A stretch of 48,427 nucleotides of DNA, the filler included, from Jimgerdemannia flammicorona (lineage: Eukaryota): NCBI GenBank assembly GCA_003990765.1. It is 2 parts of 2 records of this genome, joined end to end, with 100 filler letters (N's around TTAATTAATTAA, not from the genome) between each part and the next. Parts side by side here need not be neighbours in the genome. Positions count along the whole stretch, not along the records: positions 1 to 24,164 come from RBNJ01001014.1; 1 more part is not named here. One strand, given 5' to 3'. The position numbers and the translations under genes are program-made. Shown one piece after another: positions 1 through 27,105 of this stretch. The notes under the pieces were generated by a model, which saw only the letters and a list, made by a program, of their open reading frames with translations, did not search any database and was not told the origin of the DNA. Each line of letters starts with the position of its first letter. Positions within the stretch are counted from its first letter, which is position 1.

Positions 1-3000
1 TCACCCCCCCCTACCCCTTCTTGACGAAAGACCACTTTATCAAACACCATCTCCACCTGCCCACCACTCTGTTCACAGATCCCTTCCACCAGACGACAAT
101 GTTGCCCACCTTGTGGTCCCCATCCCACCCACCACCCGATCAGCAGATCTGCCACCAACTCCTCCCATCTCAACAACTTCTCCTGTATCCCTATCTACTG
201 CCCCTCCTCAAAAACAAAGAGCCAATGTCCAGCCAACCCCACCCACACTGCTACAACCCACCCTACAGTAAGCCACCTATTGCCAACACCTCCCACATGT
301 CTAGATTCCAGATCTTCCCATGATCTCGCTCTCTATCTGGTCTCCTTTCAACCCCTAGCTGGTCCTCTACAGCTATCCAAAAATCCCCCAGCACCTCACA
401 CTCCCCCAGCCAATGTTCCAGTGTTTGTACAAATCCCCCAACATACCCAATGTTATAACACTCCTCACACTCCAGCTGACCACCATCTACCAGATGCCCA
501 GCATGGAAGTTCAACATAACATTTCTCTGCAACATTTGCCACCACACTATCCAGAACTTGGGAGGAAGCCACCACCACACCTCTGTACTCCAAGACCAGA
601 TCCCTGCCCAGTCCCACTCCTCACCAATTCTCACCACCTGCCAACTACTTGGTCAAAGATCCTGGCCAATTTGCCGCTGACACTCCACTCTATCACCAAT
701 GTCAAACTCAGTGAGTGGAACTCTCCCTAGAAGCAGATGGTCCCATCTCCACATAGCTGGACCCCATACCACCTCCCCCTCATTGCCATGCCAGCGCAAG
801 CCTATCTGGTGCACCCCATCGACCACTCCCCACCAGAAGCCCTTATACCATAGCTATCAGCTACCATTCAGACCCACCAAAGAGAGTAGATCCCCTGAGG
901 ACCCCTGGGGAGAGATTCTCATCTCTCACACCTTCTTCATCAATGGTACCCAACCTCTACCCTGTAGATCAACAGCCCTTCTCAATCACCAAGCTCACAG
1001 GCAGTGTAGGCAATTAGGGAAATCAACAAGGCCCAGGCCTCCCCTAAGCACTGGCTCGACAAGGGTATCCCAACTGATCTGGGCCCTTCTACCTGCCCAA
1101 ATCCAATCCCTAGCCAGTTTCATCAGCCTCTTCACCACCTAAGCAGGAAAGTCTAAGTAATATGCCACATACCACAGCTTGGGGAACCAGTATACATTCA
1201 GAATCGCCACCCACCCCACCAGGGAGATGTGATGACCCCCCCAACTTTTTAGAGCCTCCCCCCAAATGTCCACCCTCCTCTCCCACCATATCCACAGTAG
1301 GACTGATCCATATACAGAGAGGAAGATATCTAGATACCTCACCACCTCTCCTGTGGGGACAATTGTTCCAATGACATCCCCTCCCACTAGCCCATTCCCC
1401 AGCACTATCGTCTCATACTTATGCCAGTTGAGCTTTGCTCCAGAGTGTACCTTATACCACTCCACTGTTTCCCAAAGAGCCTCTACATCCACTACTGATC
1501 CAAGTCCAACTACTATATCATCTGCAAAGGCCCCCACCTTCTACTCCACATCATACACAGAGAGCCCAGTCACCCTCTTATGGATCCTGTCTATCAAAGG
1601 TTCTAAGGAGAGCACATAAAGGATAGGGGACAGTGGGTCCCCTTGAGGGACTCCTCTCCCCAAGGGGAATGCCAAACCCCTGTGACCATTACACATCAGT
1701 GCCGCTCTACTCCCTTCCAACAAACTCAACATAGAGGCCCAAAACAATGGCAGAATGCTAATTCTGTCCAGTACCTTGCCCAGCCAAACCTGCCTAACAC
1801 AGTCGTAGGCCTTCTCCTGGTCCAAAAAAACCAGTCTACCATCCAATCCACAGGCCCGGGCTCCTTCAATGATGCCATGCACCCAGGCAGTTCCATCCCT
1901 GATAAGTCTACCTCCTATAAAGCCCCACTGCTCCTCACCCAGCACCTGTTGAGCAACCTTCTGTAGCCTTGCAACAATCACCTTAGTCACTACCTTCCAA
2001 TCCATATCCAGAAGTATGATTGGCCTCCAGTTCTTCTAATCCTTGTGCCGGCCCTTGTCTTTGTATAATAGGGCCACCAGCCCTAAGTCCTGCTCTCCAA
2101 CCCACATGCCATTTAGAAGAACATAGTCACAAAGGGCCACCATCTCTCCCAGCATCCCAGGGATTTTCACCATCTTCTTCTAGAAGTCCCACAGTAACCC
2201 ATCTTCTCCTGGCGCTGTCCCAAGTTTAGTCACTGCCAGGACTCCTTGGATCTCCTCCTCCTGGACTGGTAAGATCAAGTCACCCAGCCCCTCTATCTGT
2301 GGCAGCTCCCACTCCTCCAGTGTGTTACCAATCGCCTCTACATCAGCACCCCCTTCCTCCTCACTCCACAGACCCTGCCAATTCTCCTTCAATACTCCCA
2401 GGATCTGCTGCATACCATGCACCAACTCTCCCTCAGCATCCAAGATCCCATCCCACTGATGTCTCACCCACCTGGCTTGGAGGAGCCTAGACAAGTACCT
2501 AGTAGGCTGCTCCCCCTCCTCAAGCCCCTACCATCTTAGCCTGGCTGCCATTCCTTGCATATGAGTCTCCTCCTCCTCTCTCAATACCTGTTGTAGTTCT
2601 ATAACTTCCAATTTCGCCCTCTCTAACCTCTAATCCTCCATCACATCAGACTTAAGCAAATCTGCCCACTCCAACTGCAATCTCCTCAGTCTATTTGAAG
2701 CACACTGTATTCACCTCCTCCTCTATCTCCCCGCCTCTCTACCAGCTCCACCCCAATAGACCCTTGCAGCCTCCTTCAATCTCATCCAACAGATATCTAC
2801 TGACAAACCCTCCTGCCTCCAAAGTGGAATCTTTGCCTGGATGTCCTCCACCCATGAATCCCACAACTCCTTCTCAGCCAGCAGAGAGGAGTTAAGACAC
2901 CAATGTCCAGGTCCATCTCCACTCCCCCCAAACTGCCCCTGCCCAAAGAGTCCCCAGTGATCAGACCATGGGCACCACACCACCTCCAAAGTCCTCCAGA

Positions 3001-3637
3001 CATCAGCACCCCAACATTCAGCTGTCAGAATCCAGTCAATTCTTGTCCCTAAGCCATTCACCCAGTGCGTGTAGATCCTGGAGTCGCCCCACCATGTTTG
3101 GCCCATATCCCCTAAGGAGCTAAGGTTTTCCACCTCCTCCTATGCATCTATACCACCACTCCTCTCACCAACATTCCTCCCTCCATCAGTCCTATCTAGC
3201 CACAAATCTTGCACTATGTTAAAATCACCACCAAGAACATTGACCCCTTCCTCCAAGAGAATGCCCTCCTCCAGTAGCTCCTTAATCCACACAATCCTCT
3301 CTCCCCTAGCTGCCAGGCAGTAACAAGAGCCCACCCTCACTGATTCCCACCCTGGCTGGTACTATTTACCCCAGACCAAGCGATTTCCCCAGCTCTTGAT
3401 TCCCTCCAAATCTCCTCTACCCTTCTTTACCAGAATCGTCACCTTTCCAAACCAAGTGGTAGCCCCACCCCATTCCCTAGTCCATTCTACCTGATCATCC
3501 TCATCCTCACACTGTACATCCTGCAGTAAAAAGAGATCAGCCTCCAATCCCTTTAGCTATGTAAAAATGTTCTTATGCCACCCAGATCCTCGAAGGCCAT
3601 TCACATTGAGAGAGAAAATGTTAGTTGTTCTTTTCAT
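1..3637 (-). pseudogene. LINE ORF2 (APE endonuclease - reverse transcriptase - C-terminal Cys/His motif), many stops and frameshifts
   Basis: ATG at 3637 (MKRTTNIFSLNVNGL); stop TGA at 1-3; pieces in ORF track 3362-3547, 3140-3340, 2723-3133, 2180-2494, 1541-2005, 1139-1537, 263-637. Confidence 0.93.
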
Positions 3638-3668
3638 GAGGAATATTGTTAAAGATTAAACCTCTCCT

Positions 3669-5678
3669 CTACAAATCCACCCTCAAGTCCTCCTGTGCCA
3701 AATCCAAGATGTGTTCCGCAGCCAGTTCCTTCTTCTCAGCTCCCTGTGCCTCCAACCCCTCCAGAAGTTCAACCATTGTCCCATCCTCTTTCTCCTCAAA
3801 GTCCTCCCAATACTCCCCACAGGCCTCTTGCCAGAACTACAAACCATGGCGTTCTGCCCAACAGTAGGCAGCCTGCTCACCAGTGACAACCACCAGCTCC
3901 ACCTTCCTCACCTCATCTACCTCATAACCCTCATCTTCCAGTAATATTGTAAGAATCTCCATCTTCAGTACCTCCACCACTCCATCACCTCACAGGATCC
4001 TTGCCCAGTACTCCTCCAACATGATCCTCAGATCCACTTCCCCCAACACCTCAGCTGCAAGGTTATCTATCACCTTGCTCATCCACAGCAGGTTCCCAAT
4101 CTCCTTCCCTCCAGGGGTCCCCAGCTGCCCTGCATCTAGCATCGTAGTATCAGTACCTACACTGGCACCCTCATTCCACTCCTCCTCTGGGACATCCACC
4201 AGCTCATCCTCACTAACTGCCACCACCTGGCCCCCTTTCGCCACATCTGGGACTCCAAAGGTAACTTGCTAGGCCCCCTGTATTGGTACATCTTCTGCTG
4301 CCCCTCTCTGCTCCACCGGGCCCCTCCTGACAAGTGGGGGGGGGGTGCCATCTGACTCCTCCTCCCAGACCTCGAAAGTACCGTCGGCATAGGGATCCTT
4401 GCCCAGCACCTTTGCAGCCCATTCTTCTGTCACCACCGCCTCCTTTCCACCTTTGCTAGCCCATACACTGGCTTTGATGCCTCCAGAGCCCCATCTACCT
4501 TCCTCTTCTCCCCTCCTATCATACTCGCCAAGAGCTCCCTCTGCCTCAAGTGCCCCTGGGCCTGCTCCCACTGCCTTTTGTCAGTGCGGACATACAATCT
4601 CCAGGTATGTTGACTCCTCATAGAGTTTCCAGGCCTTTGCCCACCATTCCACCACACCACTCATCTCCTCCAATGCTTCCAACAAATCCTCCTCCTCCTT
4701 CTCACTCCCCTTCACCCTCGATACCTTACAAATAAAAGCCCCCCACATTAACACTGAAGGCCAGTCACTTGCCTTCCCCATGACTTTCTTGCCTGTCAGC
4801 CTAATTCTGACATCAATGTCACCTGTCCTGATCGTCATCCCCTCCCACACCTGAAAGCCAATGTCCACCACATCACCATACTCAATCATCACCTCCTCCA
4901 CCCTCTTCCTCATCTCCTCCTTAGTCACAATGGGCACCCCCTTCACCAGAAGTTGCACCACTCTGGGGTCCCATCACAAGTACCTCACCATGGGGACCAC
5001 TACCTCCCCAACCACAACTCCAGTCTTCAGTGCCTCATCCAGGGGGCCTGCCTCCTCAAAGCCCACCTCGACCCCCTCCAGACCCTTCAAGAACTTCACC
5101 GAGGCTGCCCCGGCCACCTGCTTTGAAACAAGCCCCAGAACCATCCTCACTGTCACTGCCAAGCCCTGGAAGCACAAGGTCACTGCGAATTTCAAGATTG
5201 ACTTCTTGAGTAACAGGGTCACCACCAGCCCTGTTACACTATCTGCCAGATCCCCCTTCTGCATCGGGAGCCCCTGCCCCACCTGGCCATCAGCTGTCAC
5301 ATCTCTTTTTTTTTCCTGATTCCCTGTCACACTCCCATCAACAGTCACACCCCTAGCCACTGTACCTCCAGCCCCTATGCTTACACCCCCAGCCTGGGGA
5401 CCTCCCCCCCTCCCAAGGCTCATCTTGCCCTTCCCCACAGCAGCACCAGCCCTGTCTCCAGCTGGCCATCCACTCCCCTTCACCTTGTCAGCAAAGCTGG
5501 AGGGGCCAGCCTTTCTGCTATCACCACCTGTCACCAGTCCTCCTCCAGAGCCCTCACCACCATTCAACTCTCCAAAGGCCCCCATCCCCAGGCCATAACC
5601 CCTCCCCACTTTCTGCCAGCCGAAAGCCCCAGCTCTCCCTGACCCAGTATACTTGTCGGAACTCTTGCTTGAAGACAT
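3669..5678 (-). pseudogene. LINE ORF1 (Gly-rich N-terminus, RRM-like region, acidic C-terminus), disrupted
   Basis: Colinear with ORF 42955-44673 (LLKKS..F.VT.CF.GL.V; YG.++D+GF.VWEG; WP..LMWG); ATG 5678 (in-frame ATG at 5717), stop TAG 3669-3671. Confidence 0.88.
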
Positions 5679-5760
5679 ATTGATAGTACCTTTTCTCCTA
5701 GTTGTGTCAAGAACCATTGCTTGAAGTTTTGTATAACGTGAATTGTACAGGAGAAAGGTG

Positions 5761-8700: not shown

Positions 8701-9146
8701 TCCAAACCAAGCAGTAGCCCCACCCCATTCCCTAGTCCACTCTACCCAATCATCCTCATCCTCACACCGAACATCTTGTAATAAAAAGAGATCAGCCTCC
8801 AATCCCTTGAGCCAAGTAAAAATGTTCTTATGCTGCTCAGAGCCCCTTAGCCCATTCACATTCAAGGAGAAAATGTTGGTTGTACTGTTCATAAAGAATA
8901 ATGATATATCGTGGTCCCATCCTCTATAAGTCCACATTCCACTCCTCCTGCACCAAGTCCAAGTTACATTCAGCAGCTAGTTCCCTCTCCCCAGCTTCCT
9001 GTACTGCCAACTCTCCCAGAAGTTCAACCATTGCCCCATCTTCACACTCCTCAAAGTCCTCGCGATACTCCAGACAGGCCTCCTGCTAGAGCCACAGACT
9101 ATGATGCTCTGCCCAACAGTAGGCCACCTGCTCACCAGCAACCACC
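5761..9146 (-). mobile_element. LINE copy 2; 5'-truncated in ORF1 and interrupted near its 3' end by copy 1
   Basis: ORF2 ATG at 8892 (MNSTTNIFSLNVNGL..LLQDVR); RT motifs in 7018-7200 and 6547-6987. Homology to copy 1 stops at the 'LNF' codons at 5761 and at ~9146 in ORF1. Confidence 0.92.
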
Positions 9147-9543
9147 CCCTCTACTAGAAATTGCATACCTTTTGGAAACAAGACCATCACCCAGAAATTG
9201 CATACTTTTGGAGATCACTGTACTATACAAGATTGTCACACCAGATATTGTATACTTTTGAAATACAATTATCATACAGAAATTGCATAAGGAGAACTGC
9301 CAAATTGCCAGACTGTTATATATAAGGAATACCTGTACCATATATACAAATTTCTGCTATATCTAGAGAACTGTCCCAATTAGGAAATTTACACACAAAT
9401 CACCTGCAGATATCCAGCTTTGACTATTATACCACTAAATACAAAGAATATTTTGTTGCCTTTAACAAAGTAACTGGGGGCTCAAGCCAAACTACATCAA
9501 CCCCCAACCTTGTAATTGCCTCTATTGAGCTAGGTACATTACA
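9147..9543 (+). mobile_element. LTR (3' part) of a Ty3/gypsy-like retrotransposon
   Basis: Ends ...TACATTACA immediately before a PBS-like sequence. Homologous to a second copy at ~10340-10596 + 16781-16837. Contains degenerate AGAAATTGCATAC(T)TTTGG repeats. Confidence 0.75.
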
Positions 9544-9545
9544 TT

Positions 9546-9563
9546 TGGGGGCTCAACTGAGAA
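9546..9563 (+). other. Primer-binding site, tRNA-Pro-like (TGGGGGCTCAACTGAGAA)
   Basis: Starts 2 nt after the LTR-terminal CA; begins TGGGGGCTC like known tRNA-Pro PBS sequences. Confidence 0.7.
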
Positions 9564-10107
9564 GATTTCAAAATTGACATGAATTTTCAGCTCACAAGAA
9601 CTGATAGTCAAACTGGATAAATTTGATACAAAATCAATCTCTGTCACTATAGAAGAACCAGTTATCACCAGCATTTGGACAGGAAGAGAGGTAATTACCT
9701 CAAGACTTGCTAATTACCCAGCATCAGAAGGATCCCAACCAGAAACCAGTACAGCCTGAAATCTCCAACCAGATCAACCAGACAACATAGGTGGTCCTGT
9801 TAGAGATTTTGAAGAACTTGCCTAAGAACTAGAAGATATCATTACATAAGTCTGAAATCATACAGCCAGATACCCCACAGCAGTCCTACCAATCTCACCT
9901 ATAGAATCTTTACCACCAGCCCTTGCAGAACTAGAAGCAGCTCCTTCAAGAATACCTAGGCTCACTCTACTTCAACTAAGATCTGCAACACCCTCCTCAA
10001 GATACTCAATCACTTTCACTCTCAGTAACAGTTCAGAAAGTATATCAGAGTCGGAATCTAAATCAGAATCTGGACCAGAACCAGAATTAGAAGAAAGTGA
10101 TAATGAA

Positions 10108-10596: not shown

Positions 10597-13500
10597 CATC
10601 TTTCTCCACTATTATTTACATAACACAAACTTTAAAACACACTTTTGAACTATTTATTGGAGAAAGATACTAAGATCATAGCAACCAACAAGTAAGCTGA
10701 CATGTATACTAGGTCAGATAGACCTGGAGTCTTTGACTGACAATATATTAGATGAGAGTATGGACTAGAGATAGAGTCTTTTAGTAGTCCAAGTAGGCAG
10801 GACAGTTTGGGCAGTAGTAGTGCTCCCAAATGAGTCGAATCAATTCAAATCGAATCGAATTGAGGGTTAAACAAGTCAAATCGAATTGGGGATTTTTCAA
10901 TTTGAATCAATTCAAATTGAATCAAAAGTCAAATTGAATTGAGGGTCTGATTTGAACCCTAATTTTCAAAATGCAATAACTCAGCGTAAACTCATCCAAA
11001 TCTAACGTACTTTAGCCTGTTAGAATCACATTAATATGGTGAATCTAACAAGCTAAAATACGTTAAATTTGGATGAGATTTCGTCGAGTTATTACATTTT
11101 GAAAATTAAGGGTCGAATCAAATTGGACCTTTGATTCGATTTATTGGGAGCACTAGACAGTAGTAGCAGCACTGGGGGAGAGATAGAAGGGCAGAGGGAG
11201 AGGAGCTTTGCCAATACATTGAAGGCTGGAGAATGGCCTATTGGAGCTCATGATAGGCAGGTAGAGGAGAAGAGAAAGCAGAGAGAAGGAGAAGTGAGAG
11301 GTGCAGCATCTCAGCCAGTGGGTGAAAGAGCTGGAAGAGTAGCTACTGGGAGTAGGGGGAGAACTACTGATAGTGGTGTAACTGAGAATCTGGAAAAAAA
11401 TCCAGATGTGACTGCTGATAGTGGGGCTGAACTGGTAGGACCAAAGAGGAAGAGAGATCTGGTAGATAGTGTGATAGGGCTGATAGTAGTACTATTGCTC
11501 AAGAAGTCAATCTCAGAGTTTGCTATAATCTTGTATTTCCAGGTCTTGGTGGTGATAGTGAGGATAGTTCTGGGGCTTATCTCTAAGTAGGTGGCTGGGG
11601 CTGCCTCGGTGAAGTTCCTGAAGAGTCTGGAGGGGGTTGAGATGGGCTTTGAGAAGGCTGGCCCAATAGAAGAAGTGTTGAAGGCAAGAGTGGCTATAGG
11701 GGAAGTAGTAGTCCCTATAGTGCACTGTCTGAAGTGGGACCTCAGAGAGATTCAGCTACTGGTGAAGAGAGTACCTACTATGATGAAGGTTGAGACTAGA
11801 AGGAGGGTTGAGGAGGTGATGACAGAGTATGGCAATATAGTTAATATTAGATTCCAGATGTGGGAGAGGACTACCTTTAGGATGGGGGATATGGATGTCA
11901 GGATTAGACTGGCTAAGAGAGAGGCCACTGGAAAGATAGGTGATGGGCCCTCAGTACTAATGTGGGGGGCCTTTATCTGTAAGATATCGAGGATGAAGGG
12001 GAGTGAGGAGGAGAAGAAGAATCTGTTGAAAACTCTGAAAGAGATGAGTAGAGTAGTTGAGAGGAAGACAAAGGCCTAAAAGATATATGTATAAGGAGTT
12101 GATATATTTGGAGATTGTAGATGGAAAATATCTCCACACTAACAAGAGGCAGTGGGAGAGGACTCAGGGGTACAAGAGGTAGAGAGAGCTGTTGGCAGGC
12201 CTGGAAGGAAGGGTGAAGAAGAATGAGAGTGGTATAGAGGAGTCTGGAGGTACTGAAGTGAGTATCTGGGCCAGTAAGGGGGAAGAGGATGTCAAAGAGG
12301 ATTGGGATGAGGCCAGGAAGCCACTGCCCAATGACTTATATGCAGATAGTATATTTAAAGTCTGGGAACAGGACTTAGATGGCACTTCTCCTCTTGTCAG
12401 GTGAGGTCCTGCTGTAAAGAGTTGGGCAGCAGAGGATGTGCTGATACATAGTACCCAGTGAGTTCATTTTGGAGTTTCTGATTTGGCAAAAGGGGGTCAG
12501 GTGGTGGCAGTTAGTAAGGATGAGCTAGTGGATGTAATGGAGGAGGAGTGAAATAAGTCTATAAGTACAGAAGTGGATATCATGATGTTGAGTACAGGAT
12601 GGCCAGTGTCTCTGGGAGAGAAGGAGGTAGAGAACCTACTGTAGATGAGCTAGATGATGAACAACTTTGTAGCTGAAGAGTTGAGAGAAGTAGACCTGAG
12701 GGTGATGAGTGAGGAGTATTGGATATAGATTCTGTATAGAGAGAGGGTGGTGGAGGCACTGAAGGTAGAGGTACTTGTAATTTTTCTAGAGAAGGAGGGG
12801 TATGAGATTGATAAGGAGAGAGAGGCTGAGCTGGTGATTATTACTGGTGAGTGGGTGACACACTGTTGGGCAGAGTGTCATGGATTGCAGCTCTGGCAGA
12901 AGGTGTGCCTGGAGTATTAGGAGGAGTTTGAGAAGAAGGAGGATGGGGAGATGGCTGAACTTCTGGTTGAATTGGAGATAAAGATAGCTGTAGAGAAGGA
13001 AGTGGATGCTGAACATAACTTAGATATAGCAAGGGAGGGGATGAATATGGATTTGTAGAGAATGAGTAGTACTTCTAAACATTATTTCCAATGAACAGTA
13101 CAACTAATATTTTTTCTCTGAATGTAAATAGGTTACAGGGCTCTGGGTGGCATAAGAATATTTTTACTTAGCTTAAGAGATTGGAGGCTGATCTCTTTTT
13201 ACTATAGGATGTGCATTGTGAGGATGATGTAGATCAAGTTGAGTGGACTAGAAAATGAGGTGGAGCTACTGCATGGATGGACAAAGTGGCAATTTTGGTG
13301 CAGAGTGGTAAAGGGGATTTGAGTGGAATTAGGAGCTGGGAAGACCATTTGGTATAGGGGGAATGGCATCAACCAGGTTAAGAGCTAATAAGAGTTGGCT
13401 CTTACTACTGCTCTATGGCTAGGGGTGAGCAGATTGTATAGATAAAGAGTCTTTTAGAGGAGGGCACATTCTTGAAGGATGGAGTAGATGTTCTGAGGAG

Positions 13501-16500
13501 TGACTTCAATATGGTGTGAGATCTTCAGTTAGATAGAACTGATGGAGAGAGGATTGCTGATAGAAAGAATGGTGGCCTAGACTCATGGGAAGAGGTAGAG
13601 AACCTTAGCTCCTTGAGAGATATAGGCTGAATATAGTAGAGAGATAAGAGGATTTACATATACTGAGTGAATAGCCTAGATATAAGGATTGACTGGATAC
13701 TGACTGCTGAATGCTGGGGCATGAATATTTGGAGGACTCTGAAGATAGAGTGGTGCCTATGGTTGGATCACTGGGGATTGTTAGAGCAGGGGCAGTTTGG
13801 GGAGAGTGGAGATAGACCTAGACATTGGTGTCTTAACTCCTCCCTACTGACTGAGAAGGTGTTGTAGAACTCTTAGATAGAGGACATTCAGGAGAAGATT
13901 ACTAGCTAGATACATGAGGGCTTGCCAGTGGATGTCCAGTGGATGAAGTTGAAAGAGGATGTGAGGATTTACTAGAGAGGAGCTGGTAGAGTTACTGGGA
14001 GGTAGAGGAGAAAGAGAGTGAGGGCTGCTTCAAATAGGTTGATTAGACTGCAAATGGAATAGGCTGAGTTGATAAATTCTGAAGAAGTGGATGATTGGAG
14101 GTTAGTGCAGACTAAGCTAAAAGTAGTGGAGTTGTAACAGATATTAAGAGAAGAGAAGGAGATACAGATGAAAGAAATGGTAGCTAGATTGAGGTAGTAG
14201 GGACTTGAGGAGAGAGAGAGACCCACTAGGTATTTGTCAAGGCTCCTCTAAGCAAAAAGGGTATAACATCAATGAGATGGAGTCCTTAATGCAGAGGGAA
14301 AAATGGTTCAGAGTATACAACAGATCTTGGGGTTGCTAAAGGAATGATGGAGGGGTCTGTGGAGCGAGAAGGAAGGAGGTGCTGATTGGAGACACTCTGG
14401 AGAATTGAGAGCTACTGTAAGTAGAGAACCTAGGGGATTTGATCCTATTAGTCCAAGAGGAGGAGATCTAGAGAGTCCTTGTAGCAACTAAGCTTAGAAT
14501 AGTACCAGGAGAGGGGAAATAGTAGCCCTCTGTGACATTGTTCTTCTGAATAGCCAGTGGGTAGGAGGGCAGGATCTAGGGCTAGTGATCCTATTGTACA
14601 AGGATAAAGAGAGGAGAGAGGACTGGAAGAACTGGAGGCCAATCATACTTCTGAATATAGACAGGAAGATAATTACTAAGATAATTGTAGCAATATTATA
14701 GAAGATTGTCCAATAGGTACTGAGTGAAGAGCAGTGGGGTTTTGTTGGAGGTAGACTTATCAGGAATGAGACAGCCTGGGTCCATGGCATCATTGAAGGA
14801 GTACAGGCTAGTAGATTGGATGGGAGACTGGTCTTTTTGGATCAAGAGAAGACCTATGACCATGTATAGCAGGTGTGGTTGGATAAGATACTAGATAGAA
14901 TAAGAGTTTCTCTGCTATTTTGAGCTTCTATAATGAATCTGTTGGAGGGCAGTAGGGTGGCACTATTGTGTAATAGTTACTGGGGTCTGACATTTCCCTT
15001 GGGGAGAAGAGTTCCTCAGGGGGATCCACTGTCTCCTATTCTATATATCCTCTCACTAGAACCTTTGATAGATAGGATTTGGCAAAAAGTAGTAGGACTC
15101 TCTATTTATAGTGTAGTGTAGAAGGTGGGGGCCTTTGCAGATAACATAGTGATTGGACTTGGATCAGTGGCAGATGTTGAGGCTCTGAAGGAGACAGTAG
15201 AATAGTATAAGGTACACTCTGGAGCAAAACTCAACTAGTATAAGTGTGAGATAATAGTGTTGGAAAATGGGCTAGTAAGAGGGGATATCATTGGAACAAT
15301 TGTCCCTACAGGAGAGACAGTGAGATATCTGAGTATCTTTCTTTCAGTGTATAGATCTGTCTTGCCATGAGTGTGGTGGGAGAGGAGGGTGACCATCTGG
15401 AGGAAGGCTCTTAGAGGTTGGAGAGGCCACCATATCTCTCTAGTAGGTCAGATATCAATTCTGAATATCTACTGATTCCCTAAGCTGTGGTATTTGACCT
15501 ATTACTTAGACTTTCCTGCTTGGGTGGTGAAGAGATTGATAAAACTGGCTAGGGATTGGATTTGAGCTGGGAGGCAGTCTCAGATCAGTTGGGATACTCT
15601 TTCAATACCAGTAGTTTGAGGAGAGCTAGGACTGGTGGATTTTTCTAAGAGACTGCACTACCTGAGAGCTTGGTGGTTAAAGCAGGCTGTAGAACTAAGG
15701 GGAGGAAGATGAGTACTACTGATGCAGAAGGTATGAAAGATGAGATTCTCTCTGAGAGGGTCCTCAGGGAATTTGCTATCTCTGGTGGGCCTGAGTGGAA
15801 GCCATCAGCTAAGGTATAAAGGTTTCTGGTAGGGGGTAGCAGATAGAGTATACTATATAGATCTGTGCTGGTATAGTAATGAAGGGGAGATGCTGTGGGG
15901 ACTAGCTATGTGGAGATGAGATAAATTGCTTTTAGGGGGCACTCTACTTATTGAGTTTGATATTATAGATAGAGTGGAGTATCAGTGGAGACTCAGTCAG
16001 AATCTTTAGCCTTAAAGTTAGCAAGTAGTGAGGATTGGAAAGAAGTGGGATTGAGCAGGAGTCTGGGTATAGAGTACTGCAGTGTGAAGGTGGCTTCCTT
16101 TCAAGTTCTGGGTAGTATGATAGTAGATACTATAGAGGTATATCATGTTGAATTTCCACACTAGATATCTAGTAGATAGTGGACTACTGGAATGTGAGGA
16201 GTGCTTCAATATAGGATAAGTTGGGGGATCTGTACAGACTCCAGAATACTGACTAGGAGAGTGCAAGATTATGGGGAACTTTTGGATAGTAGTAGAGGAT
16301 CAGGTGGGTGAAAGAAGAGACCAGATAGAGAGAGAGGTTGCTGGGAGGATCTGAGAACTAGGTTGATGAGAGGTGTGGGCAATGAATGGCTTACTATAGA
16401 GTGGGTTTTAGTTATATAGATAGGGCTGGCTGGATATTGACTCTTTGTTTTTGAGAAGAGGTAATAGATGGGTTTGCAGAAGAAGGTGTTAAGATGGGAG

Positions 16501-16770
16501 AGATTGATGGAGAATTTGCTGATAGAGTGGTGGGTTGGATGGGGTCCCCAGGGTAGGCACCACTACTATCTGGTGAAAGAAATATATGAACAGAGTAATG
16601 GGTGGGTGGAGGTGATTAATGACCTAGTGCTCTTTAATGTAGGGGGGGAGGGGGGTCTCTAGAGGGATCAGATAGGGGTGGGCTAAGTATATTATATATT
16701 AAATAGATAGATGTATTATGTAATAAAGGAAGGAGTCTAAGAGACTATAAAAATAAAAAAAAATAAAAAA
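10597..16770 (+). mobile_element. LINE copy 3, full-length, hypermutated, with 10-bp TSD and A-rich tail
   Basis: TSD TACAAGCTAA (10587-10596) / TATAAGCTAA (16771-16780). ORF1 ~10678-13058 (ATG mutated to ATA), ORF2 13091-16662 with dozens of stops; AATAAA and A-tail 16748-16770. Confidence 0.93.
10818..11155 (+). mobile_element. hAT-type MITE copy 1 (inserted in ORF1 of LINE copy 3)
   Basis: TIR TAGTGCTCCCAA...TTGGGAGCACTA; 8-bp TSD GGCAGTAG/GACAGTAG; subterminal AATCG/AATTG pentamer repeats; long internal palindrome ~10945-11128. Confidence 0.9.
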
Positions 16771-17120
16771 TATAAGCTAAACTACTATATCAACTTTTTA
16801 ATCTTATAATTTGTCTCTATTGAGCTAGTATATTACAATATATATATATAAAGTAAAATAGATATATATTTAAAAATAATAAGAATATATATATATATAA
16901 TAGTATACTTTACTATTATATATAGTAATTATATTCTTTAAGTTGATAATCTTTAATATTAATAGCTTAAAAATACTTATATATATTAGATATCTTTAGC
17001 TTGAGAAAGTAGCTATTTTAATATTTAAGTATTATTTATTATATTTATAATTGATTTAGTTTTCTTCCAATAAACTGATTTAGTAATTATAAATTTTAAT
17101 TTTTTAAAGTTTAAGTTTTT

Positions 17121-18308
17121 TTTATTTTTTTATTTTAATGGACTTATGTCCTGCAGAATTTTATTAGAAGAGAATCTAGACTATATAGGCCAAAACCCTC
17201 TCCCACTATCTACCAAGCACTGCCCCCCCATTAACCTAGGCTAGCTATTATCTAGCAGCTCAACTATACCAGGTACAGCAGAGCCTATGTTGGTCCATAT
17301 CTCATTCTGTGTACCACACTCTCCCTACCACCAGGGGAAACCCAATCATATGCCAATAACCAAAAGTGTATGCCTGAGAACCCAATGTATATATAAGGCC
17401 ACACTTGAGCCAAATAGAATAGTCCCTGTCACCCCAAAGAGAATGACAGGCAAAGAAAAACTCTCATCAAAGTATAACATAGTGGGTAGGGCCTGGTTCT
17501 CTTAGTTGAGGTGAGTAAAGGACTTACATGTGAGGTGGGAGGAAGCCCTCAATACTCTACTACTCAAGCCTGTAGGCCTCGATCACATTGCCATATCAGC
17601 TCTCGGTTCTAGTTGAGTGCAGCCAAGATGCCTGAAATGGGTAGCCTTGGGCCCCTCGACCCCCCCTGACGACTGGGGCCCAACCCCACTGACCACCAAA
17701 AGAAGCCGAGAGTGACACCTACCACCTAACTGCACTGCACCAATCAAAAGGCCCCACCAAAGCAGTACCTGCTCTAGCCCTGATGACTGTCCCCAGCCTG
17801 GTACCCTACTGGTTCACCATTATTGCCCTTCCTCCTATCTGTGATGGCCATCTCCCCTCTCATCCCAATAACACCTAAAAAGCAGTTATCTATGCTAGAA
17901 CCATGCTCACCGGGAAGCTCGCCAAAGCCAGAGGGCTCCACTACAGGTACTGAAGATCTGCAGATAATCTATACTGAGCACTTAATGTCCAAGATCGGCT
18001 GACTCCCTATATAGCCCAAGATATATTGAGACAATACCTTATTGATAATGGCAAAGGAAGAAGGTACCACACCAAAACGAGTATACCCCAGATGCAGCTA
18101 AAGGTACCAGAATCTGCGAAAAAGTGGAGAAAGCACCGATCTGACACTAATAAAGAGGTAACTCATCACCATTACCCTTCTCCCACCATGCCCCTGCAGG
18201 CATAGCAAACCAACCTGAGGTAGAGGGGGTAATATTAGGGAAAAGGAGACTCAGAAGGTCACCTACTAAACTCTGTGATCAGTAAGGTAGTGGAGAAAGG
18301 AGTACTGG
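17121..18308 (-). mobile_element. Putative non-autonomous retroposon (~1.2 kb) with poly(A) tail and TSD
   Basis: Flanked by AAGTTTAAGT(T/C)TTTT at 17107 and 18309. Minus-strand 3' end is AATAAA-GGACATAAGTCC-A-rich tail; 5' end carries CTTTCTCCACTA as in LINE copy 3; no recognisable RT. Confidence 0.7.
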
Positions 18309-19102
18309 AAGTTTAAGTCTTTTAATATATCTTTTTTTAGATATAGTCTGAATCTGTATATTTTTTAAATTTAAATATTTATAGAATTCAGAATATCTAA
18401 TTTTAAATAGTTTTATTTTAATTAACATAGAGACTTATATATCTATAAATTATAAACTTAAGTTTTAATTATTTATTTAATATTAAAGAGTAAAAATTTC
18501 TTTAATATTTTTTTAGTAAATAGGAAAATTTCCGAGATTTATTAAGTTATATATATTTTTAAACTCTTTTAGATTTTGCTAACTATTGGTTAAGAAATAT
18601 AAGATATAAAGTTACTTAAATATATATAATATAAAAGTTATATTATAATAATATTCTTACTAAGTTATAATAATATTATTTTTATATATTAACTATAAGG
18701 TAATTGTTCTAAATTTTACTATAAGACTATGATATAATATTTTATATATTCCAAACTATATTTGTTTTAAGATCAAATTCTGACTATTTTAAATTTAATT
18801 ATAGTCTTTATATTTACTTTTTAAATAAACTATTTTAATATATAATATTAATAAAATTGTAGACTATTTTATTTAATAATATTATTGATATCATTGATCT
18901 ATTTTTAGACTATAACTATAGTGATATTAGTGAGATTATATATATACTAAACTAATATAGAAACTAATGTAATTACTATAATATTACTAATATTATAGAC
19001 GAAAATTAATATAAAATCATTATAATCTCATTAATATTATTAGATTTTCCAATATATAATCTTATATTAATGATATAAATTTTAATAGTAATAAAAGTAT
19101 GA

Positions 19103-19592
19103 GGAGAGATTTCAGATAATTGGAAAGGTGGTTGAATTCTATAGAGAAGAGTAGTATTCTCAATAAATTAAATCAAATTGAATTTGACCCAAATTTAATT
19201 TAATATTTAATTTGAACTCAATTTTTTGAAATATAATAACTTGATGAAAACATATCTAAATTTAATGATCTTTAGCTTGTTAGATTCCTCTATATAAGAG
19301 GAATCTAACAAGCCAAAGATTATTAAATATAGACATGTTTTTATTAAGTTATTCTATTTTGAAAAATAGAGTTTGAATTAGACTCTCAATTTGATTTGAA
19401 TTAAAAAATCCCTAATTCAATTTGATTCAAATTGATTCAATTCATTTGAGAGTACTAGAGAAGAGATTGAGAGTAAACTCTATTGAGAGATTGAGTAAAA
19501 AATAAGACCTTGCTATTGTATTATATGGATATAGATTGGTTTGATAACAAATATAGAAGTCCAAGTAACTATAAAATAAAAATAAAAATAAA
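19103..19592 (+). mobile_element. Severely 5'-truncated LINE stub (~180 bp of 3' end plus tail) carrying MITE copy 2
   Basis: TSD AATAAAAGT(A/G)TGA at 19090-19102 and 19593-19605; ends AGTCCAAGTAACTAT(AAAAT)n like copies 3 and 4; translation GRFQIIGKVVEFYREEI resembles the ORF2 end GRVGVVGERVVFICEEV. Confidence 0.65.
19152..19457 (-). mobile_element. hAT-type MITE copy 2 (opposite orientation to copy 1, C>T/G>A eroded)
   Basis: TIR TAGTATTCTCAA...TTGAGAGTACTA; perfect 8-bp TSD GAGAAGAG (19144-19151, 19458-19465); same palindromic core TTTAGCTTGTTAGATTC...GAATCTAACAAGC. Confidence 0.88.
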
Positions 19593-20858: not shown

Positions 20859-23298
20859 TCACGACCCAACACCATATACAGTTTCGATATACGTCACCCA
20901 CCGCAAGATGATCAGCTTGATATCCTCCCAACCCTCCAGATTCTGTACCCTTTCCCCCTTCACACCTCCCACGCCCGCACTATCGAGCGGAGTGCGTCTC
21001 TCGACCTTGAACCACTCGCGATGTATATTCCCGCATCCCTTGCATGTATTGAGGTCAGCACGGTGCTTGTCAAAGAGTTCGAGATGGATGAGGCGCTCGG
21101 CGCGGTGGGAATGCTTGCACTTTATAACGGGGCCGGAGTCGAGGTCAGAGGTAGAGGAGGTCGATGAGGAAGAAGAAGGAGAAGGGGAAGGGGAGGGCAT
21201 GGGCGAGCTGCGGAGATTAGGCTGCGGGTAAGAGGCGGTGGTGGGGAAGTGCTCGATGAGTTTTGGGGTGTAGCCGCATTGCTGACTCCATTGGTGGAGG
21301 CGCCGGTGGAGGTTGGTGGTGCGGCCGACCTTGTAGAGGCAGTAGGTGTCGGTAGAGGAGGAGGGGCCTATGGGAAATCGATATGAGAGGACGTTAAGTT
21401 GGCGTGTTGCGTTCGCCGGTATGACTATCCCGAAGGGAGGAGGTTGAAAGCGATACAATCGGAAAAAAAAAAAAAAAAAAAAAATTCCAGCTCACGAGTG
21501 AAAATGTACGTACCGTCCAATAACTGATAGGCGTAAATGAAACCGGCATCGTCGCTCGGGGAAATGGGTTTCTCCATCTCCATACGCAGGAGGTACCTTG
21601 TCTTCTCCGAAAGGCCGGGGCTTATCCATTCTGTAAATTCAAGACCGCGGAGATGCGATGGCGTGCTTCAATATCACGCAAAACGCCTCCCCCGCGTCCC
21701 ACCATCCCTCGATGCTTACCATCAACATGCACCCACTTCAGCTTGATCTCCTTACCCACGAACACGAGCTTTTCCCGGACCGCCTCGGACCGATGATGAT
21801 GACAGTATGGCAACGCGCCGTCCTCATTACTCTCATCGATTTTAACCTTATTGGTGCACCGAGTTCCCTTCTTACTGAACCCCTGGCACCGCAAACTGGC
21901 CTTGCCGCTCGGAGTTGTGTCTCGCTGCCCGAGGCGCGAGTGCGTGGGCGGGCTCGGCATGCGGGGGAGGGTTGGGGAGGAGTGTGTGCGAAGTTGGTTT
22001 GCGACGGTATAGGGGGAGGGGAAGGAGTATTCATCGTCGGAGTTGGAGTAGGTAATGGGAGGTTGTTGAGGTCGGTGAGGGACAACGGAGGTGGAGGGTG
22101 AGGGTGAGGGTGAAGGCGAGAGCGAGTCAGAGGAGGAAGGAGATGAGGGCGGGAAGGGTTTTTGTCCCTGGGGGACGGTGGAGGAATGGGATTTGCGTGG
22201 ATGGTTGAGGAAAGATTTGAGGTTGTTGACGAAACCTTTGATGGAGGAGTTGTCGTTATCACGCTTTTCAGGCGTGGTGGGAGCTGTGGCGTAGTGGCGG
22301 TTGATGAAGGAGAAAGGTTTCTGTGCGGCTGTTGGGGGGGAAGCGGATGAAGTGGGTTCATAATTCGTTGCCGGAGGTGGCGATGCCGTGGACAGGTTCG
22401 GTTCTGCTAACGGTGTTGCGGGGAGAGGTTTATTCACGTTTGCGTTAGAGGTTGATGGTTCTTGGAATGATGAAAGATCCATGCCATCTGCGTAGTCTTG
22501 CTGTTCGGTGGGACCCCGACTGCCCGAATATGGTGTGCGTTGCGGCGACACATTCGATGTTTGGGAAACATCTCTTGTTCCCGCTTGTGTTGGGGTTATT
22601 GGCGAACGAATGATCTGCGGCTGGTGCTTGCCGCTGACAGTGATCTCTGCAGGCGTTGAATCGCCGGAATAAATGACGATCACCGTGGTGGACTGTTGAG
22701 GGACATTGGTGCCGTTTATGTTCGGCACCGCGGAACGTTCCGGTGTCGCTGTCTTTTTCCGCCTCCCGGGTCCATTGCTTTTCGGCTGCTTGGTTCGCTG
22801 GGGTGTGGCGAGCGCGAGAGTCTGCATGTTCTCAGTTAGCTGCCCGAGTGAGTCCTCGGTGTCGTTTTCGAAGTCGTCCTCGACAATGTGTGGATCCTTC
22901 TTGCGAAGCGCAAGGGTTTGCATGTTCTCTGTCAACTGCGCGAGCGAGTCCTCGGGGTTGTTCTCGACGATGCGTGGAACCTTCTTACGAATAGTCTTAC
23001 TGAAGAAGCCGATGTCGCCGTCGTCGTCGCTGCCGTCATTGTCAGGGTTGTCACCGACAGCTTTGCTCTGAACTTCCCAGTCCGAGTCAGAGTCCGCGTG
23101 GACAGACTCCTTGCTCTTGCGAATGTTGAAGATGTCAGTGTTGTTGGCCTGGGCACGGTGAGAGTAGCAGAACTGGTTGCCGTCGGCGTCGGTCACGCCT
23201 TTGACGACAGAGCGCTGACACGGCTTGCCGTTCACGGAGATGCCACGGCATTTTGTAGCGTTGGGGCGCTTTGAGGGAGTTCGTTTGGTGACGTGCAT
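20859..23298 (-). CDS. T5orf172/MUG113 (DUF1766, GIY-YIG-like) domain protein, 3 exons: 23298-21720, 21630-21514, 21367-20859 (~734 aa)
   Basis: GT-AG introns 21631-21719 and 21368-21513 keep frame. Spliced product has GFIYAY...YKVGRTTNLHRRLHQWSQQC...HRAERLIHLEL...CKGCGNIHREWF, plus two C-x-G-x4-G-x2-C...CxxH modules. Confidence 0.92.
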
Positions 23299-23640
23299 GT
23301 CGCCAACATGAGGTTCCGCTTCGTTGAGTGTTTATTCAGGGGGTTTCATGATTGATCGTGGCGCGGGACAGGTTAAATGCCGTGTCACTCATTCACTATT
23401 TCTGATGACTGACTCCTGACTGACTCCTGACCTGCCAACCATCATCCCTCCCCTGCCAACCACCCCTCCCTCCCTCTCCCATCAATCAATCAAATGCCAT
23501 ATGGGTGTAAACTTTTACTGTTCCATGTACTCGCCGACCAAAACCTACCTAACGAAATACAGGACCAACAATGATGTACAGTGAACATAATAATACACGC
23601 ACCATCCTAACAATCTACTCTATAAACACCCCCTCAACCT

Positions 23641-24264: not shown

Positions 24265-25316
24265 GTGGAGTTGCGTGGAGGGGGCTGGGTCCCCTTGCTG
24301 CAGAAGATATGGGAGGGGAGGACATCACCTAGAGGCTTGACTGGCGATCTTCTTTCATTGGTTGGGCTTCAGAACACTGCGCAACTGAGATATAAAGGCT
24401 TCTGGTGGGGTATAGCCAAGGGGGCACACCGCATTGGTATTCGCTGGTGAGGGGATGAGGGGGAGAGGGCTTGGGGCCCAGTAATGTGGAGATGGGATTG
24501 CATTCTTCTGGGAGGCGTACCTTTACTGGAGTTCAACATTAGTGATGGCATCAAATGCCAAAGGGGACCAGGCCAGGATCTGTGGCCTAGCAGTTGGCAA
24601 GGGGTTGGAATTGGTGAGGAGTGGGACTGGCATGGGGTTTGGACCTGGAGTACTGCAGTGAAAAATTGGATGCCGCTGAAGTACTGGATAGTCTGGTGGC
24701 ATGTGCTGAGGAGGAATGTGATGCTTAACTTCCACTCAGGACACCTTGTTGTCAGGGGCTGCTTTGACTGTGAGGAGTGCCATAATGTAGGGCAGGAAGG
24801 GGGATTGATACAGATGCCAGAACATTGGCTAGGGGAGTGTGTGGTATTGGGAGACTTTTGGCAGGCCATTGGGGACCACTTGGGGGTAAGGCGTAGGGGT
24901 GATGATGTACGGGGGAGGTGGGAGGACCTGAGGGATCGATTGATAGGAGGGGTAGGGGAAGAGTGGATTACACTAGGCTGGGCATTGGCTATTTGGGTTG
25001 GGCTGGCCGGACACTGGCTATTTGTATTTGAGGAGGAGAAGAGACAGAGCTTGGGGAGCCGGTTAGCAAGGTGGCAGTTCCTTATAGAGGATACCTTGAC
25101 AGGTTGGTGGCTTGGCTGGGGGCTGCAGGGGGGTCGGAGACACCGCTTAGTGGTGAAAATCTGTGGTCAGAGTGGTGGACGAGTTGGAGTTGTTGGTGAG
25201 AGGGTGGTCTTTATATGTGAGGAGGTGGGGTGGGGCCCCCCAATGGGGATTGGTTAGTGGGTGGTTATATTGTATACTTATTCATAGACTGGTAATAAAG
25301 ACGGAGTCCAAGGGAC

Positions 25317-25366
<50 letters not shown>
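24265..25366 (+). mobile_element. LINE copy 4, 3' portion (ORF2 C-terminus, 3' UTR, pure poly(A))
   Basis: ORF 24484-25257 with CEECHN..EHWLGEC; single upstream stop at 24448-24450; AATAAA 25294-25299, hairpin AGTCC-AAG-GGACT, uninterrupted A-tract 25320-25366. Confidence 0.93.
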
Positions 25367-25368
<2 letters not shown>

Positions 25369-27105
25369 TATAGTGAGAGAATTCACTTAATTTACTAAGT
25401 CAACAATATAATTGACATTCTTATAGATATACTTCTTATGGTTTATTTATTGATTAAATGGCTAAGATTTCATATAAAAATAGTTCAATAAAGATACTTA
25501 TATATATTAATTATATAAAACCTCTTATATATTATATATTTATATAATATTTATTATGAGATTTATTTGTATATTTAAAAGTATAAAAGTAATCTTCTGT
25601 AATACTCAGTAATTGCTTATATTATTATAATATTAAATTTATACTTATAGTTTTATATCCTTTACCAAATTTTATTTATTAAGAAGATTTATTATATAGA
25701 ATACTCAAATAGTATTATCTTTTCTATCAAATACTAGAATAGACCTCTTGGCTATATTTATACTAATAACTAGAATTATATTTTCTGTATCTATATCTAT
25801 AGTTGTAATTGAAACTGCTTTTACTATTGTTAGAATACTTATAATTAGTATATCTGTATTATTATACTAATCTTGACTCACTATATTGTAGTATATATTA
25901 TAGTATATATTTTAGTAATATGTTACTATGGTTATTACTACTAAGTATAAGTAGAACTTATAATCTTTATTATAAAAAAGAATATTTCTATTGAACTTAT
26001 GTAGGTTATATATTTCATAAATAATATAAAACTGATGAAATGGTGTAAGTCACATGCTGATATATCAAGTTGCCATCTCAACATCCTGTATATTAACTGA
26101 TGATTAAACAATCTAAATTATAAAGAAAATATATATAATGAATATATAAATATAGAGACATAAGTATGAAAAATGGACAATAGTATTGGCTTACTGAAGG
26201 ATGAGCCTTCCACCAAGCCAACAAGCTGTATATCTTGCTGTTGAATACAATCAGATAATGCAGTGAACATATTTTGATTCACTAATATATTCTTACTTTT
26301 CAGCCTTTATAGATGACAAATATAAGCACATATTTACCTTATGTGTTGCATCTGACAATTTTGTAGGAGGTGATTGTCAATGAGGAATGGAACTTTTGCA
26401 TTTGGCGAAAGAAACTATCCAGTGAGGAAATATAGCACAGTAAATATGTAGGACACGTCAGGCAGGACTGTGTTGAAATATGCAACTCGAGTAACGAGCA
26501 ATTTGTGGCTTATGTTATGTACATGTCATCAATGCCGACGTCATCAATACCGACGTCATCAATCCTCACGTCATCAATAATTTCTGCAACTTGAGTATCA
26601 ATAAAAATATCCCTGTTCTTCCACGATTACTCCAGTAATTCAGTAATTCCAAAACGGAATAGATGAAAATTACAATTATTGAAACGTAAATACTGTGTTA
26701 GAAATAAATGTTAATTGCTCAATGATTGCCTGAAGACATGTTCCTCGCAATGGATTTGGGAATTAGCCGTTTCAATCCGCTGTTCTATATTATCATACTT
26801 CCGTCACATGATATATCATATGATCCCAGACACATAACCGTTCCTCGCTTCATGAAATACTTGACATGATAACAATACGGACCAGGGTTGGTGTGCCATA
26901 ATTAATACTGCGAGCTGTAATTGATGTTCATTGTGTTAAATGACGTCCAATTCGGGCGAGATTCATGGTGTAAAACTTTTTGATTGGGCAGGTTACGTAA
27001 GCTATTTGCTCCTTTTTTTTTTGCTCTCCACATTACACCATTTCCTCCCCTTTTCTTCCACAAATTTTTACTAATAACCTTACACACCGACACACCCTCT
27101 TTTCA

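What the first reader, a model, noticed from the sequence alone, without database searches (positions are those of the whole stretch)
17107..18323. Candidate non-autonomous partner of the LINE: shared termini around an unrelated 1.2-kb body
Seen: ~15-bp TSD, A-rich tail, AATAAA and a terminal GGAC-ATAA-GTCC hairpin. Within 10 nt of its 5' end is CTTTCTCCACTA, identical to the start of LINE copy 3 (10600-10611) and similar to copy 1. The interior shows no ORF1/ORF2 similarity and no tRNA-like head that I can see. Inference: a full-length non-coding (or decayed cargo-carrying) retroposon that uses the LINE's 5' initiation motif and a similar 3' recognition signal, i.e. a LINE/parasite pair not matching the classical tRNA-SINE design.
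Basis: partly seen in the sequence, partly recalled or inferred. Interest (0 to 1): 0.7.

Follow-up and report, generated by a model that had tools for sequence, protein, structure and literature searches.

The report
Gene-less hitch-hiker retroposon of fungal L1s
This 1.2-kb stretch is one of thousands of copies of a gene-less jumping element that starts with the same short sequence as the genome's LINE retrotransposons and ends in a mirror-image version of their terminal hairpin, so it most likely spreads by borrowing their enzymes; elements of this general kind are known, though this family and its pairing with L1-type LINEs appear undescribed.

Summary
The minus-strand element is one copy of a family estimated at about 5,000 copies (9 in a 400-kb sample, 2.2% of bases). 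Copies are uniformly about 1.17 kb with a fixed 5' start, poly(A) and distinct 12-19-bp TSDs (39 of 52 assessable). 20 of 27 assessable tail-selected copies are full length, and none of 30 runs directly on from LINE sequence. I found no ORF, tRNA, B box or Rfam match. A 15-nt head is shared with the genome's APE-RT, L1-like LINEs. Those LINEs end in AGTC-loop-GACT (3,414 hits); the element carries the same duplex with swapped arms, so the 3' similarity is in layout more than sequence. Subfamilies share the 5' half and tail but have exchanged middles. Best reading: a Pol II-type non-autonomous retroposon mobilised in trans by resident L1-like LINEs, working like Blumeria Eg-R1 and bipartite non-autonomous LINEs. 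Promoter use and hairpin recognition are inferred. Earlier notes of this scan describe what is probably this family on other pieces of the genome.

The parts
18309..18323 (-). 5' target-site duplication (15 bp)
   Evidence: 14 of 15 identical to 17107-17121
18301..18308 (-). Variable 5' leader between the TSD and the conserved head (CAGCT is the commonest form in the family)
   Evidence: 8 of 39 TSD-defined copies have CAGCT; the others vary
18286..18300 (-). LINE-like head core (CCTTTCTCCRCTACC); putative internal Pol II initiation element
   Evidence: Shared with 51 LINE heads; score beats 1500 of 1500 genome windows and 500 of 500 shuffles; function inferred
17735..18285 (-). 5' half of the body, conserved across subfamilies (about 1-2% transversions)
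   Evidence: boundaries approximate
17255..17734 (-). Middle module, type A here; type B copies carry a version about 22% diverged in transversions, with a duplicated ~80-nt unit
   Evidence: boundaries approximate
17137..17254 (-). Conserved 3' terminal region of about 120 nt
   Evidence: 0-5 transversions in about 120 sites between subfamilies; predicted stem not significant, z -1.7 and -0.7
17160..17165 (-). AATAAA polyadenylation-type signal
   Evidence: same position in the family
17140..17151 (-). Terminal hairpin GGAC-loop-GTCC; the LINE duplex with swapped arms
17122..17136 (-). A-rich tail
17107..17121 (-). 3' target-site duplication
10597..16770 (+). LINE copy 3 (candidate partner type): head at 10597-10630, AATAAA 16722-16727, AGTCT-AAG-AGACT 16734-16746, poly(A); interrupted near 10820-11155 by an inverted-repeat insert
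1..5760 (-). LINE copy 1: same head type; ORF2 frame with Exo_endo_phos and RVT_1, broken by stops

Best explanation
A high-copy, non-coding, non-autonomous non-LTR retroposon. SHOWN: thousands of dispersed, uniform ~1.17-kb copies with a fixed 5' end, poly(A), 12-19-bp TSDs and occasional 5' truncation (hallmarks of target-primed reverse transcription); no coding capacity; a head shared with the resident L1-like LINEs; several subfamilies. INFERRED: it is transcribed by Pol II from the LINE-type head, processed at AATAAA, then captured in trans by the APE-RT protein of the resident L1-like LINEs. The tail probably descends from a LINE tail that gained a short partial repeat, giving the swapped-arm hairpin (a post hoc reading, about 45%). 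Whether the enzyme needs the hairpin (about 35%) or just poly(A) (about 50%) is open. Middles were probably exchanged between lineages by template switching or recombination. Copies were later degraded by CpG-biased C>T change.
For: 40 of 40 scored candidates were near full length at 86-88%. 981 exact tail-motif hits, control 0. 9 copies in 400 kb. 39 of 52 assessable copies have TSDs, all different. 20 of 27 assessable are full length; truncated copies L112 and L115 have their own TSDs. 7-17 stops in each frame; longest open frames no longer than shuffles; 1-nt indels between subfamilies. No Pfam hit in six frames of copy L058. No B box in the head and T4-T5 runs from nt ~184 argue against Pol III. 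Head test: 0 of 1500 genome windows and 0 of 500 shuffles reach the score; the LINE-head profile's best hit lies in the first 12 nt in 77 of 77 copies with a hit (78 scanned). RT hits in the loci held at that point were all 39-82% identical to the window's RT, whose closest solved relative is human L1 ORF2p (E 1e-16; R2 6e-9). Subfamily B tail matches the LINE motif at 12 of 15 (21 of 20,000 shuffles); the LINE duplex in either orientation arises in about 0.5% of shuffled tails.
Against: No expression, TSS or mobilisation data. Head similarity beyond 15 nt is marginal (27 of 500 shuffles) and the head profile's E-value is only 0.18. For subfamily A, the window's own, the tail after AATAAA is no more LINE-like than chance (9 of 15 ungapped, 3,194 of 20,000; 83 of 300); subfamily C gives 10 of 15 (1,132 of 20,000). 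Folding of the last 100-120 nt is not significant, and no covariation within the family supports the hairpin. The 3' comparisons were designed after seeing the data. The L1-clade label rests on two solved clades and recalled motifs, with no tree. Other LINE clades were not excluded genome-wide.
Confidence: 0.8

Rival explanations
1. The true partner is a different, unseen LINE family whose 3' end is the GGAC-loop-GTCC tail (a classical shared-tail pair).
For: The tail sequence differs from the dominant LINE tail. Stringent LINEs normally share tail sequence with their partners (PMC3747384, passages). Only part of the genome was read.
Against: 0 of 30 contig-ordered tail hits had LINE sequence directly upstream of the tail motif. 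A LINE-type AATAAA context plus this tail gave 3 hits genome-wide, all with the element's own sequence within the match. The head matches the visible LINEs.
Confidence: 0.09
2. Processed retrocopies of a single, highly expressed host non-coding RNA or mRNA (WEIRD-like), not a self-propagating element.
For: Pol II-type features (AATAAA, poly(A)); strong conservation of the 5' half; the 1.1-kb Magnaporthe WEIRD RNA is retroposed by a LINE (PMC2104539, passages).
Against: At least three subfamilies plus an older lineage with diagnostic indels and mosaic middles imply several source copies. The LINE-type head sits exactly at the 5' end. Copy number is in the thousands.
Confidence: 0.06
3. 5'-truncated copies of the long 3' UTR of an autonomous LINE.
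For: G-rich sense strand like the LINE 3' regions; the last 110 nt score weakly above all 64-65 body windows against LINE tails.
Against: Fixed 5' start abutting the TSD; 20 of 27 full length; no nhmmer hit to LINE 3' regions other than one inserted element copy.
Confidence: 0.02
4. The element carries a small functional or decayed coding cargo, such as the 95-codon sense ORF at nt ~135-420 (a ROPIP1-like peptide).
For: The 95-codon ATG frame is present in the A, B and C consensus; Eg-R1 encodes a peptide (PMC6022598, passages).
Against: The older lineage has 1-nt indels at 280, 330 and 379 within it; transversions by position modulo 3 are 11/9/3, not clearly periodic; open frames are no longer than in shuffles; no Pfam hit.
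Confidence: 0.05

Closest known systems
Eg-R1 / Egh24 (BG_Non-LTRs) of Blumeria graminis (PMC6022598, passages)
   Same: Fungal, high-copy, non-autonomous; no A/B boxes; internal T runs; AAUAAA; Pol II-type; family members conserved in the 5' region.
   Different: Per those passages Eg-R1 insertions lack genomic poly(A), and they name no LINE-shared head or partner. This element has genomic poly(A), a LINE-type head and a LINE-like hairpin. Sequence homology to Eg-R1 was not tested.
Bipartite ORF-less non-autonomous LINEs: RIME/Ingi, NARTc/L1Tc, Vingi, RTE and R2 derivatives (PMC5786205, passages)
   Same: Keep LINE 5' and 3' signals, encode nothing, likely Pol II.
   Different: Those are internal-deletion derivatives; here only about 15-30 nt of head and a rearranged tail relate to the LINE, around an unrelated body. 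That 2018 paper lists only the RTE, Ingi, Vingi and R2 clades; this partner appears L1-like.
EhSINE1/EhLINE1 of Entamoeba histolytica (PMC2996970, passages)
   Same: No small-RNA precursor, no ORF, polyadenylated, conserved termini with a variable interior and internal repeats.
   Different: EhSINE1 is 500-600 bp and shares about 70 bp of 3' sequence with its LINE; here 3' sequence sharing is slight and the clearer sharing is 5'.
Stringent L1-clade SINE/LINE pairs: maize ZmSINE2/3 with monocot L1, Chlamydomonas SINEX-3/L1-1_CR (PMC3747384, passages)
   Same: L1-clade LINEs with a conserved 3' hairpin plus poly(A), and a non-autonomous partner.
   Different: Those partners copy the LINE tail in the same orientation; here the arms are swapped and the head is LINE-type.
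MINE/WEIRD of Magnaporthe (PMC2104539, passages)
   Same: Fungal, about 1.1-kb non-coding sequence retroposed by a LINE, with 10-20-bp direct repeats.
   Different: WEIRD occurs only fused to truncated MGL or Mg-SINE, in 33 chimeras, never alone; this element is free-standing and in thousands of copies.

Membership tests
Non-autonomous non-LTR retroposon | Dispersed multi-copy with distinct TSDs | tested here: met
   39 of 52 assessable copies, 12-19 bp, all distinct; 981 tail hits
Non-autonomous non-LTR retroposon | 3' poly(A), common 3' end, some 5' truncation | tested here: met
Non-autonomous non-LTR retroposon | Encodes no RT or endonuclease | tested here: met
Non-autonomous non-LTR retroposon | Mobilised in trans by a LINE | not testable with these tools
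   Inferred from hallmarks and the shared head
Classical SINE (tRNA/5S/7SL, Pol III) | Small-RNA-derived head | tested here: not met
   ARAGORN 0 of 15 loci; no Rfam match near gathering score in 6 + 6 loci
Classical SINE (tRNA/5S/7SL, Pol III) | A and B boxes, no internal terminator | tested here: not met
   No A or B box at <=1 mismatch in the first 400 nt; T4-T6 runs from nt ~184 (box patterns recalled)
Bipartite ORF-less non-autonomous LINE | 5' end from the LINE 5' end | tested here: met
   15-nt core significant, extension marginal
Bipartite ORF-less non-autonomous LINE | 3' end from the LINE 3' end | tested here: inconclusive
   12 of 15 in subfamily B; 9 of 15 in A and 10 of 15 in C, not significant; swapped-arm duplex
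Bipartite ORF-less non-autonomous LINE | Whole sequence derived from the LINE by internal deletion | tested here: not met
   No body similarity to four window LINE references or to the 30 LINE-tail upstream stretches
Eg-R1-like Pol II retroposon | Expressed as a polyadenylated Pol II transcript | not testable with these tools
   No RNA holder listed
Eg-R1-like Pol II retroposon | Sequence homology to BG_Non-LTRs | not tested
L1 clade (partner LINE) | APE endonuclease plus RT grouping with L1/Tx1 in a tree | tested here: inconclusive
   Domains present; nearer L1 than R2; no clade-wide tree; motif likeness recalled

The most novel reading that the evidence does not exclude
A fungal L1-type LINE lineage recognises its RNA stringently through a conserved terminal hairpin, and a long-lived, gene-less partner exploits it with the LINE's own minimal promoter head and a hairpin whose arms are swapped. 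That would be a natural experiment showing the L1 ORF2 protein reads the duplex or its shape rather than the linear tail sequence, and an ORF-less two-ended parasite of the L1 clade with exchangeable middle modules.
Probability: 0.25. Interest if true: 0.72.

Novelty: new variant of a known kind. Interest (0 to 1): 0.48.

Why it matters
About 2% of this genome appears to be this one family, which tRNA-SINE and ORF-based annotation would miss. L1-clade LINEs rarely share 3' ends with partners, and whether ancestral L1s recognised RNA stringently is an open question (PMC3747384, passages). A fungal L1-like lineage with a near-invariant terminal hairpin and a mirror-hairpin parasite makes that testable with two small constructs. 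The 15-30-nt shared head also points to a minimal internal promoter. If recognition is poly(A)-only, this is simply another Eg-R1-like family.

Tried and rejected
RNA evidence: no RNA holder listed. The one run offered (X1, RNA status a guess) has contigs over 29 of 30 bins at mostly 80-95% likeness, including a B-type joint; this shows presence of related sequence only, not expression. Two exact patterns in metagenome contigs gave 0 hits each. Rfam: only weak matches below gathering score, so no support for a ribozyme in the duplicated unit. Coding cargo and antisense ORF rejected. The sliding fold scan gave no window beyond z -2.1. A joint head pattern meant to catch both element and LINE returned only 12 LINE-type heads. 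The sequence look-up in earlier scan notes returned nothing. The Atlas gave only a generic RVT_1 name for the RT and weak fungal-type leads for a host homeodomain (scores 0.81-0.87), so the taxon stays 'probably fungal'. A consensus of the older lineage could not be built: one search listed 40 scored candidates, mostly near full length at 74-76%, but only the L124, L152 and L175 copies were compared. Nine literature searches found no description of this family; the library lacks most subscription papers and Repbase, and no supplements were read.

Full report
Observation. The element lies on the minus strand between a 15-bp TSD (18309-18323 and 17107-17121, 14 of 15 identical), with an A-rich tail, AATAAA at 17160-17165 and GGAC-ATAA-GTCC at 17140-17151. 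The 12-mer shared with LINE copy 3 occurs twice in the window against 0.02 expected. It sits about 330 bp from the tail of LINE copy 3, tail to tail, in AT-rich decayed DNA. Nothing suggests the two are physically linked.

It is a large family. In the 231-Mb own genome, all 40 scored candidates (of 6,195) were near-full-length matches at 86-88%. A tail pattern has 981 exact matches, control 0. Forty 10-kb stretches picked by contig number hold 9 copies, 2.2% of bases. That extrapolates to roughly 5,000 copies (about 2,400-9,900 by Poisson limits; only contigs over 11 kb were sampled). Of 78 aligned full-length copies, 52 had enough flank to assess, and 39 showed TSDs of 12-19 bp, all different. 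Among the first 30 tail hits in contig order, all 30 had the element's own sequence upstream (one, L172, only over about 30 nt). Twenty were full length, 7 truncated or interrupted and 3 cut by contig ends. What lies 5' of the break in the truncated ones was not compared with LINEs, but L112 and L115 (the same copy as L188) have TSDs at the break. Single-copy origin and a LINE 3' UTR are therefore rejected.

It is non-coding and not a Pol III SINE. Subfamily consensus sequences have 7-17 stops per frame. Their longest open frames are equalled or exceeded by 63-86% of shuffles, and subfamilies differ by 1-nt indels. A 95-codon ATG frame in subfamilies A, B and C is broken in three older copies. 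Six frames of copy L058 hit no Pfam family. No tRNA was found in 15 loci and no Rfam family in 12 loci. There is no A or B box near the 5' end, and T4-T6 runs begin at nt ~184 (box patterns recalled). Against a transition-reverted consensus, 2,976 of 3,189 differences are C>T or G>A, mostly at CpG (42%) and CpA (12%); that reference biases the spectrum in this direction.

The resident LINEs. Copy 1 encodes Exo_endo_phos and RVT_1. Its RT is closest to human L1 ORF2p among solved structures (E 1e-16, against 6e-9 for R2). That comparison holds only these two clades, and the likeness of the motifs to L1/Tx1 is recalled, so 'L1-like' is provisional. RT hits in the loci then held were all 39-82% identical to it. 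Fifty-one LINE heads from several families share a pyrimidine-rich start. LINE tails share AATAAA-N(2-9)-AGTCYAWGDGACTAT-poly(A): 3,414 exact matches, control 0. The motif was first seen in an open survey of poly(A) ends. Of the first 30 matches, 22 had at least 340 bp of LINE-like sequence upstream.

The 5' link. The element's first 34 nt score above 1,500 of 1,500 genome windows, 157 of 157 body windows and 500 of 500 shuffles against 20 of the 51 LINE heads. The signal is mostly a 15-nt core; beyond it 27 of 500 shuffles do as well. A head profile hits best at the 5' end in 77 of 77 copies with a hit, though at E 0.18 on the consensus; the copies are not independent. That this core is an internal Pol II start element is inference.

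The 3' link. The layout matches: AATAAA, short spacer, 4-5-bp hairpin, 2-3 nt, poly(A). The sequence differs: LINE AGTC(C)-loop-(G)GACT, element GGAC(T)-loop-(A)GTCC, the same duplex closed at the opposite end. Shuffled tails give that duplex about 0.5% of the time, but any 4-bp hairpin about 20%. In subfamily B the 15 nt after AATAAA match the LINE motif at 12 positions (21 of 20,000 shuffles). A and C are not significant (9 and 10 of 15). A LINE tail extended by a short partial repeat would explain this; the reading is post hoc. Loops vary among subfamilies while the arms do not, but there is no covariation and the folds are not significant. A LINE-type AATAAA context with the element's hairpin occurs only 3 times genome-wide, each with element-type spacer sequence.

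Subfamilies. Clustering of 78 copies gave A (60, including the window's copy), B (8), C (4) and 6 singletons; these counts are skewed by the searches that fetched them. A and B differ by about 1% transversions over nt 10-570 and 3% over the last 120 nt, but about 22% over 570-1050. There B lacks about 100 nt of A and duplicates an ~80-nt unit, yet total length stays 1.17-1.19 kb. An older lineage at 74-76% identity is also numerous. Module exchange is the simplest reading; stronger constraint on the ends is the alternative.

Comparison and novelty. It works like Blumeria Eg-R1, described as non-autonomous, lacking A/B boxes and Pol II-transcribed (PMC6022598, passages). It also works like bipartite ORF-less LINE derivatives, reported as of 2018 only from the RTE, Ingi, Vingi and R2 clades (PMC5786205, passages). 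It fails membership of classical SINEs and of strict internal-deletion derivatives. EhSINE1 (PMC2996970, passages) and MINE/WEIRD (PMC2104539, passages) are further analogues. L1-clade pairs sharing a 3' end are rare (PMC3747384, passages). Nine searches showed no description of this family; other papers were seen as listings only. Earlier AI notes of this scan describe 1.17-1.2-kb poly(A) elements on other pieces of this genome and name Eg-R1 and NARTc/RIME as analogues. They are probably this family, but that was not checked by sequence (one search was blank). One note suggests an Endogonales host, which I did not test beyond a weak fungal lead.

Verdict. A real, abundant, non-coding LINE-dependent retroposon: a new variant of a known kind, interest 0.48. 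The mirror hairpin and the minimal shared head are the parts worth an experiment.

Noticed in passing
G000 genome-wide; window 16722-16750 and 25294-25320: Divergent L1-like LINE families with different 3' UTRs all end in AATAAA-N(2-9)-AGTCYAWGDGACTAT-poly(A) (3,414 exact hits); unusual for L1-type elements and suggestive of stringent 3' recognition or a shared processing signal.
   Followed up: partly
window ~10820-11155 and ~19166-19435; also L010, L014, L023: A ~300-bp MITE-like insert with long inverted repeats interrupts LINE copy 3; related copies occur elsewhere in the window and in other loci.
   Followed up: no
element nt ~770-800 (window ~17505-17530): A block conserved between the otherwise divergent A and B middles holds a splice-donor-like GTAAGT on the sense strand and GTGAGT on the antisense strand (motifs recalled); function unknown.
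   Followed up: no
repeat copies genome-wide: Transition hypermutation biased to CpG over CpA, on both strands within each copy; differs from classical CpA-biased RIP as recalled.
   Followed up: partly
L147:7327-7812, L017, L018, L051; L219, L228: A second, more distant LINE group (RT 39-50% identical); L219 and L228 carry the canonical LINE tail behind a different 3' region and may belong to it.
   Followed up: partly
window 20859-23331 (-): Open frames with T5orf172/MUG113 and a weak DUF5763 match.
   Followed up: no
window 30288-32534 (+) and ~27100-28200: A 748-aa frame with a homeodomain and 21-aa repeats, with a diverged duplicate about 3.3-3.7 kb upstream.
   Followed up: partly
window 33849-34106: Tandem array of a 14-bp unit.
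   Followed up: no
L025, L017, L101, L109, L177, L183, L217: Element copies often lie inside or beside LINEs and other copies of their own family.
   Followed up: no
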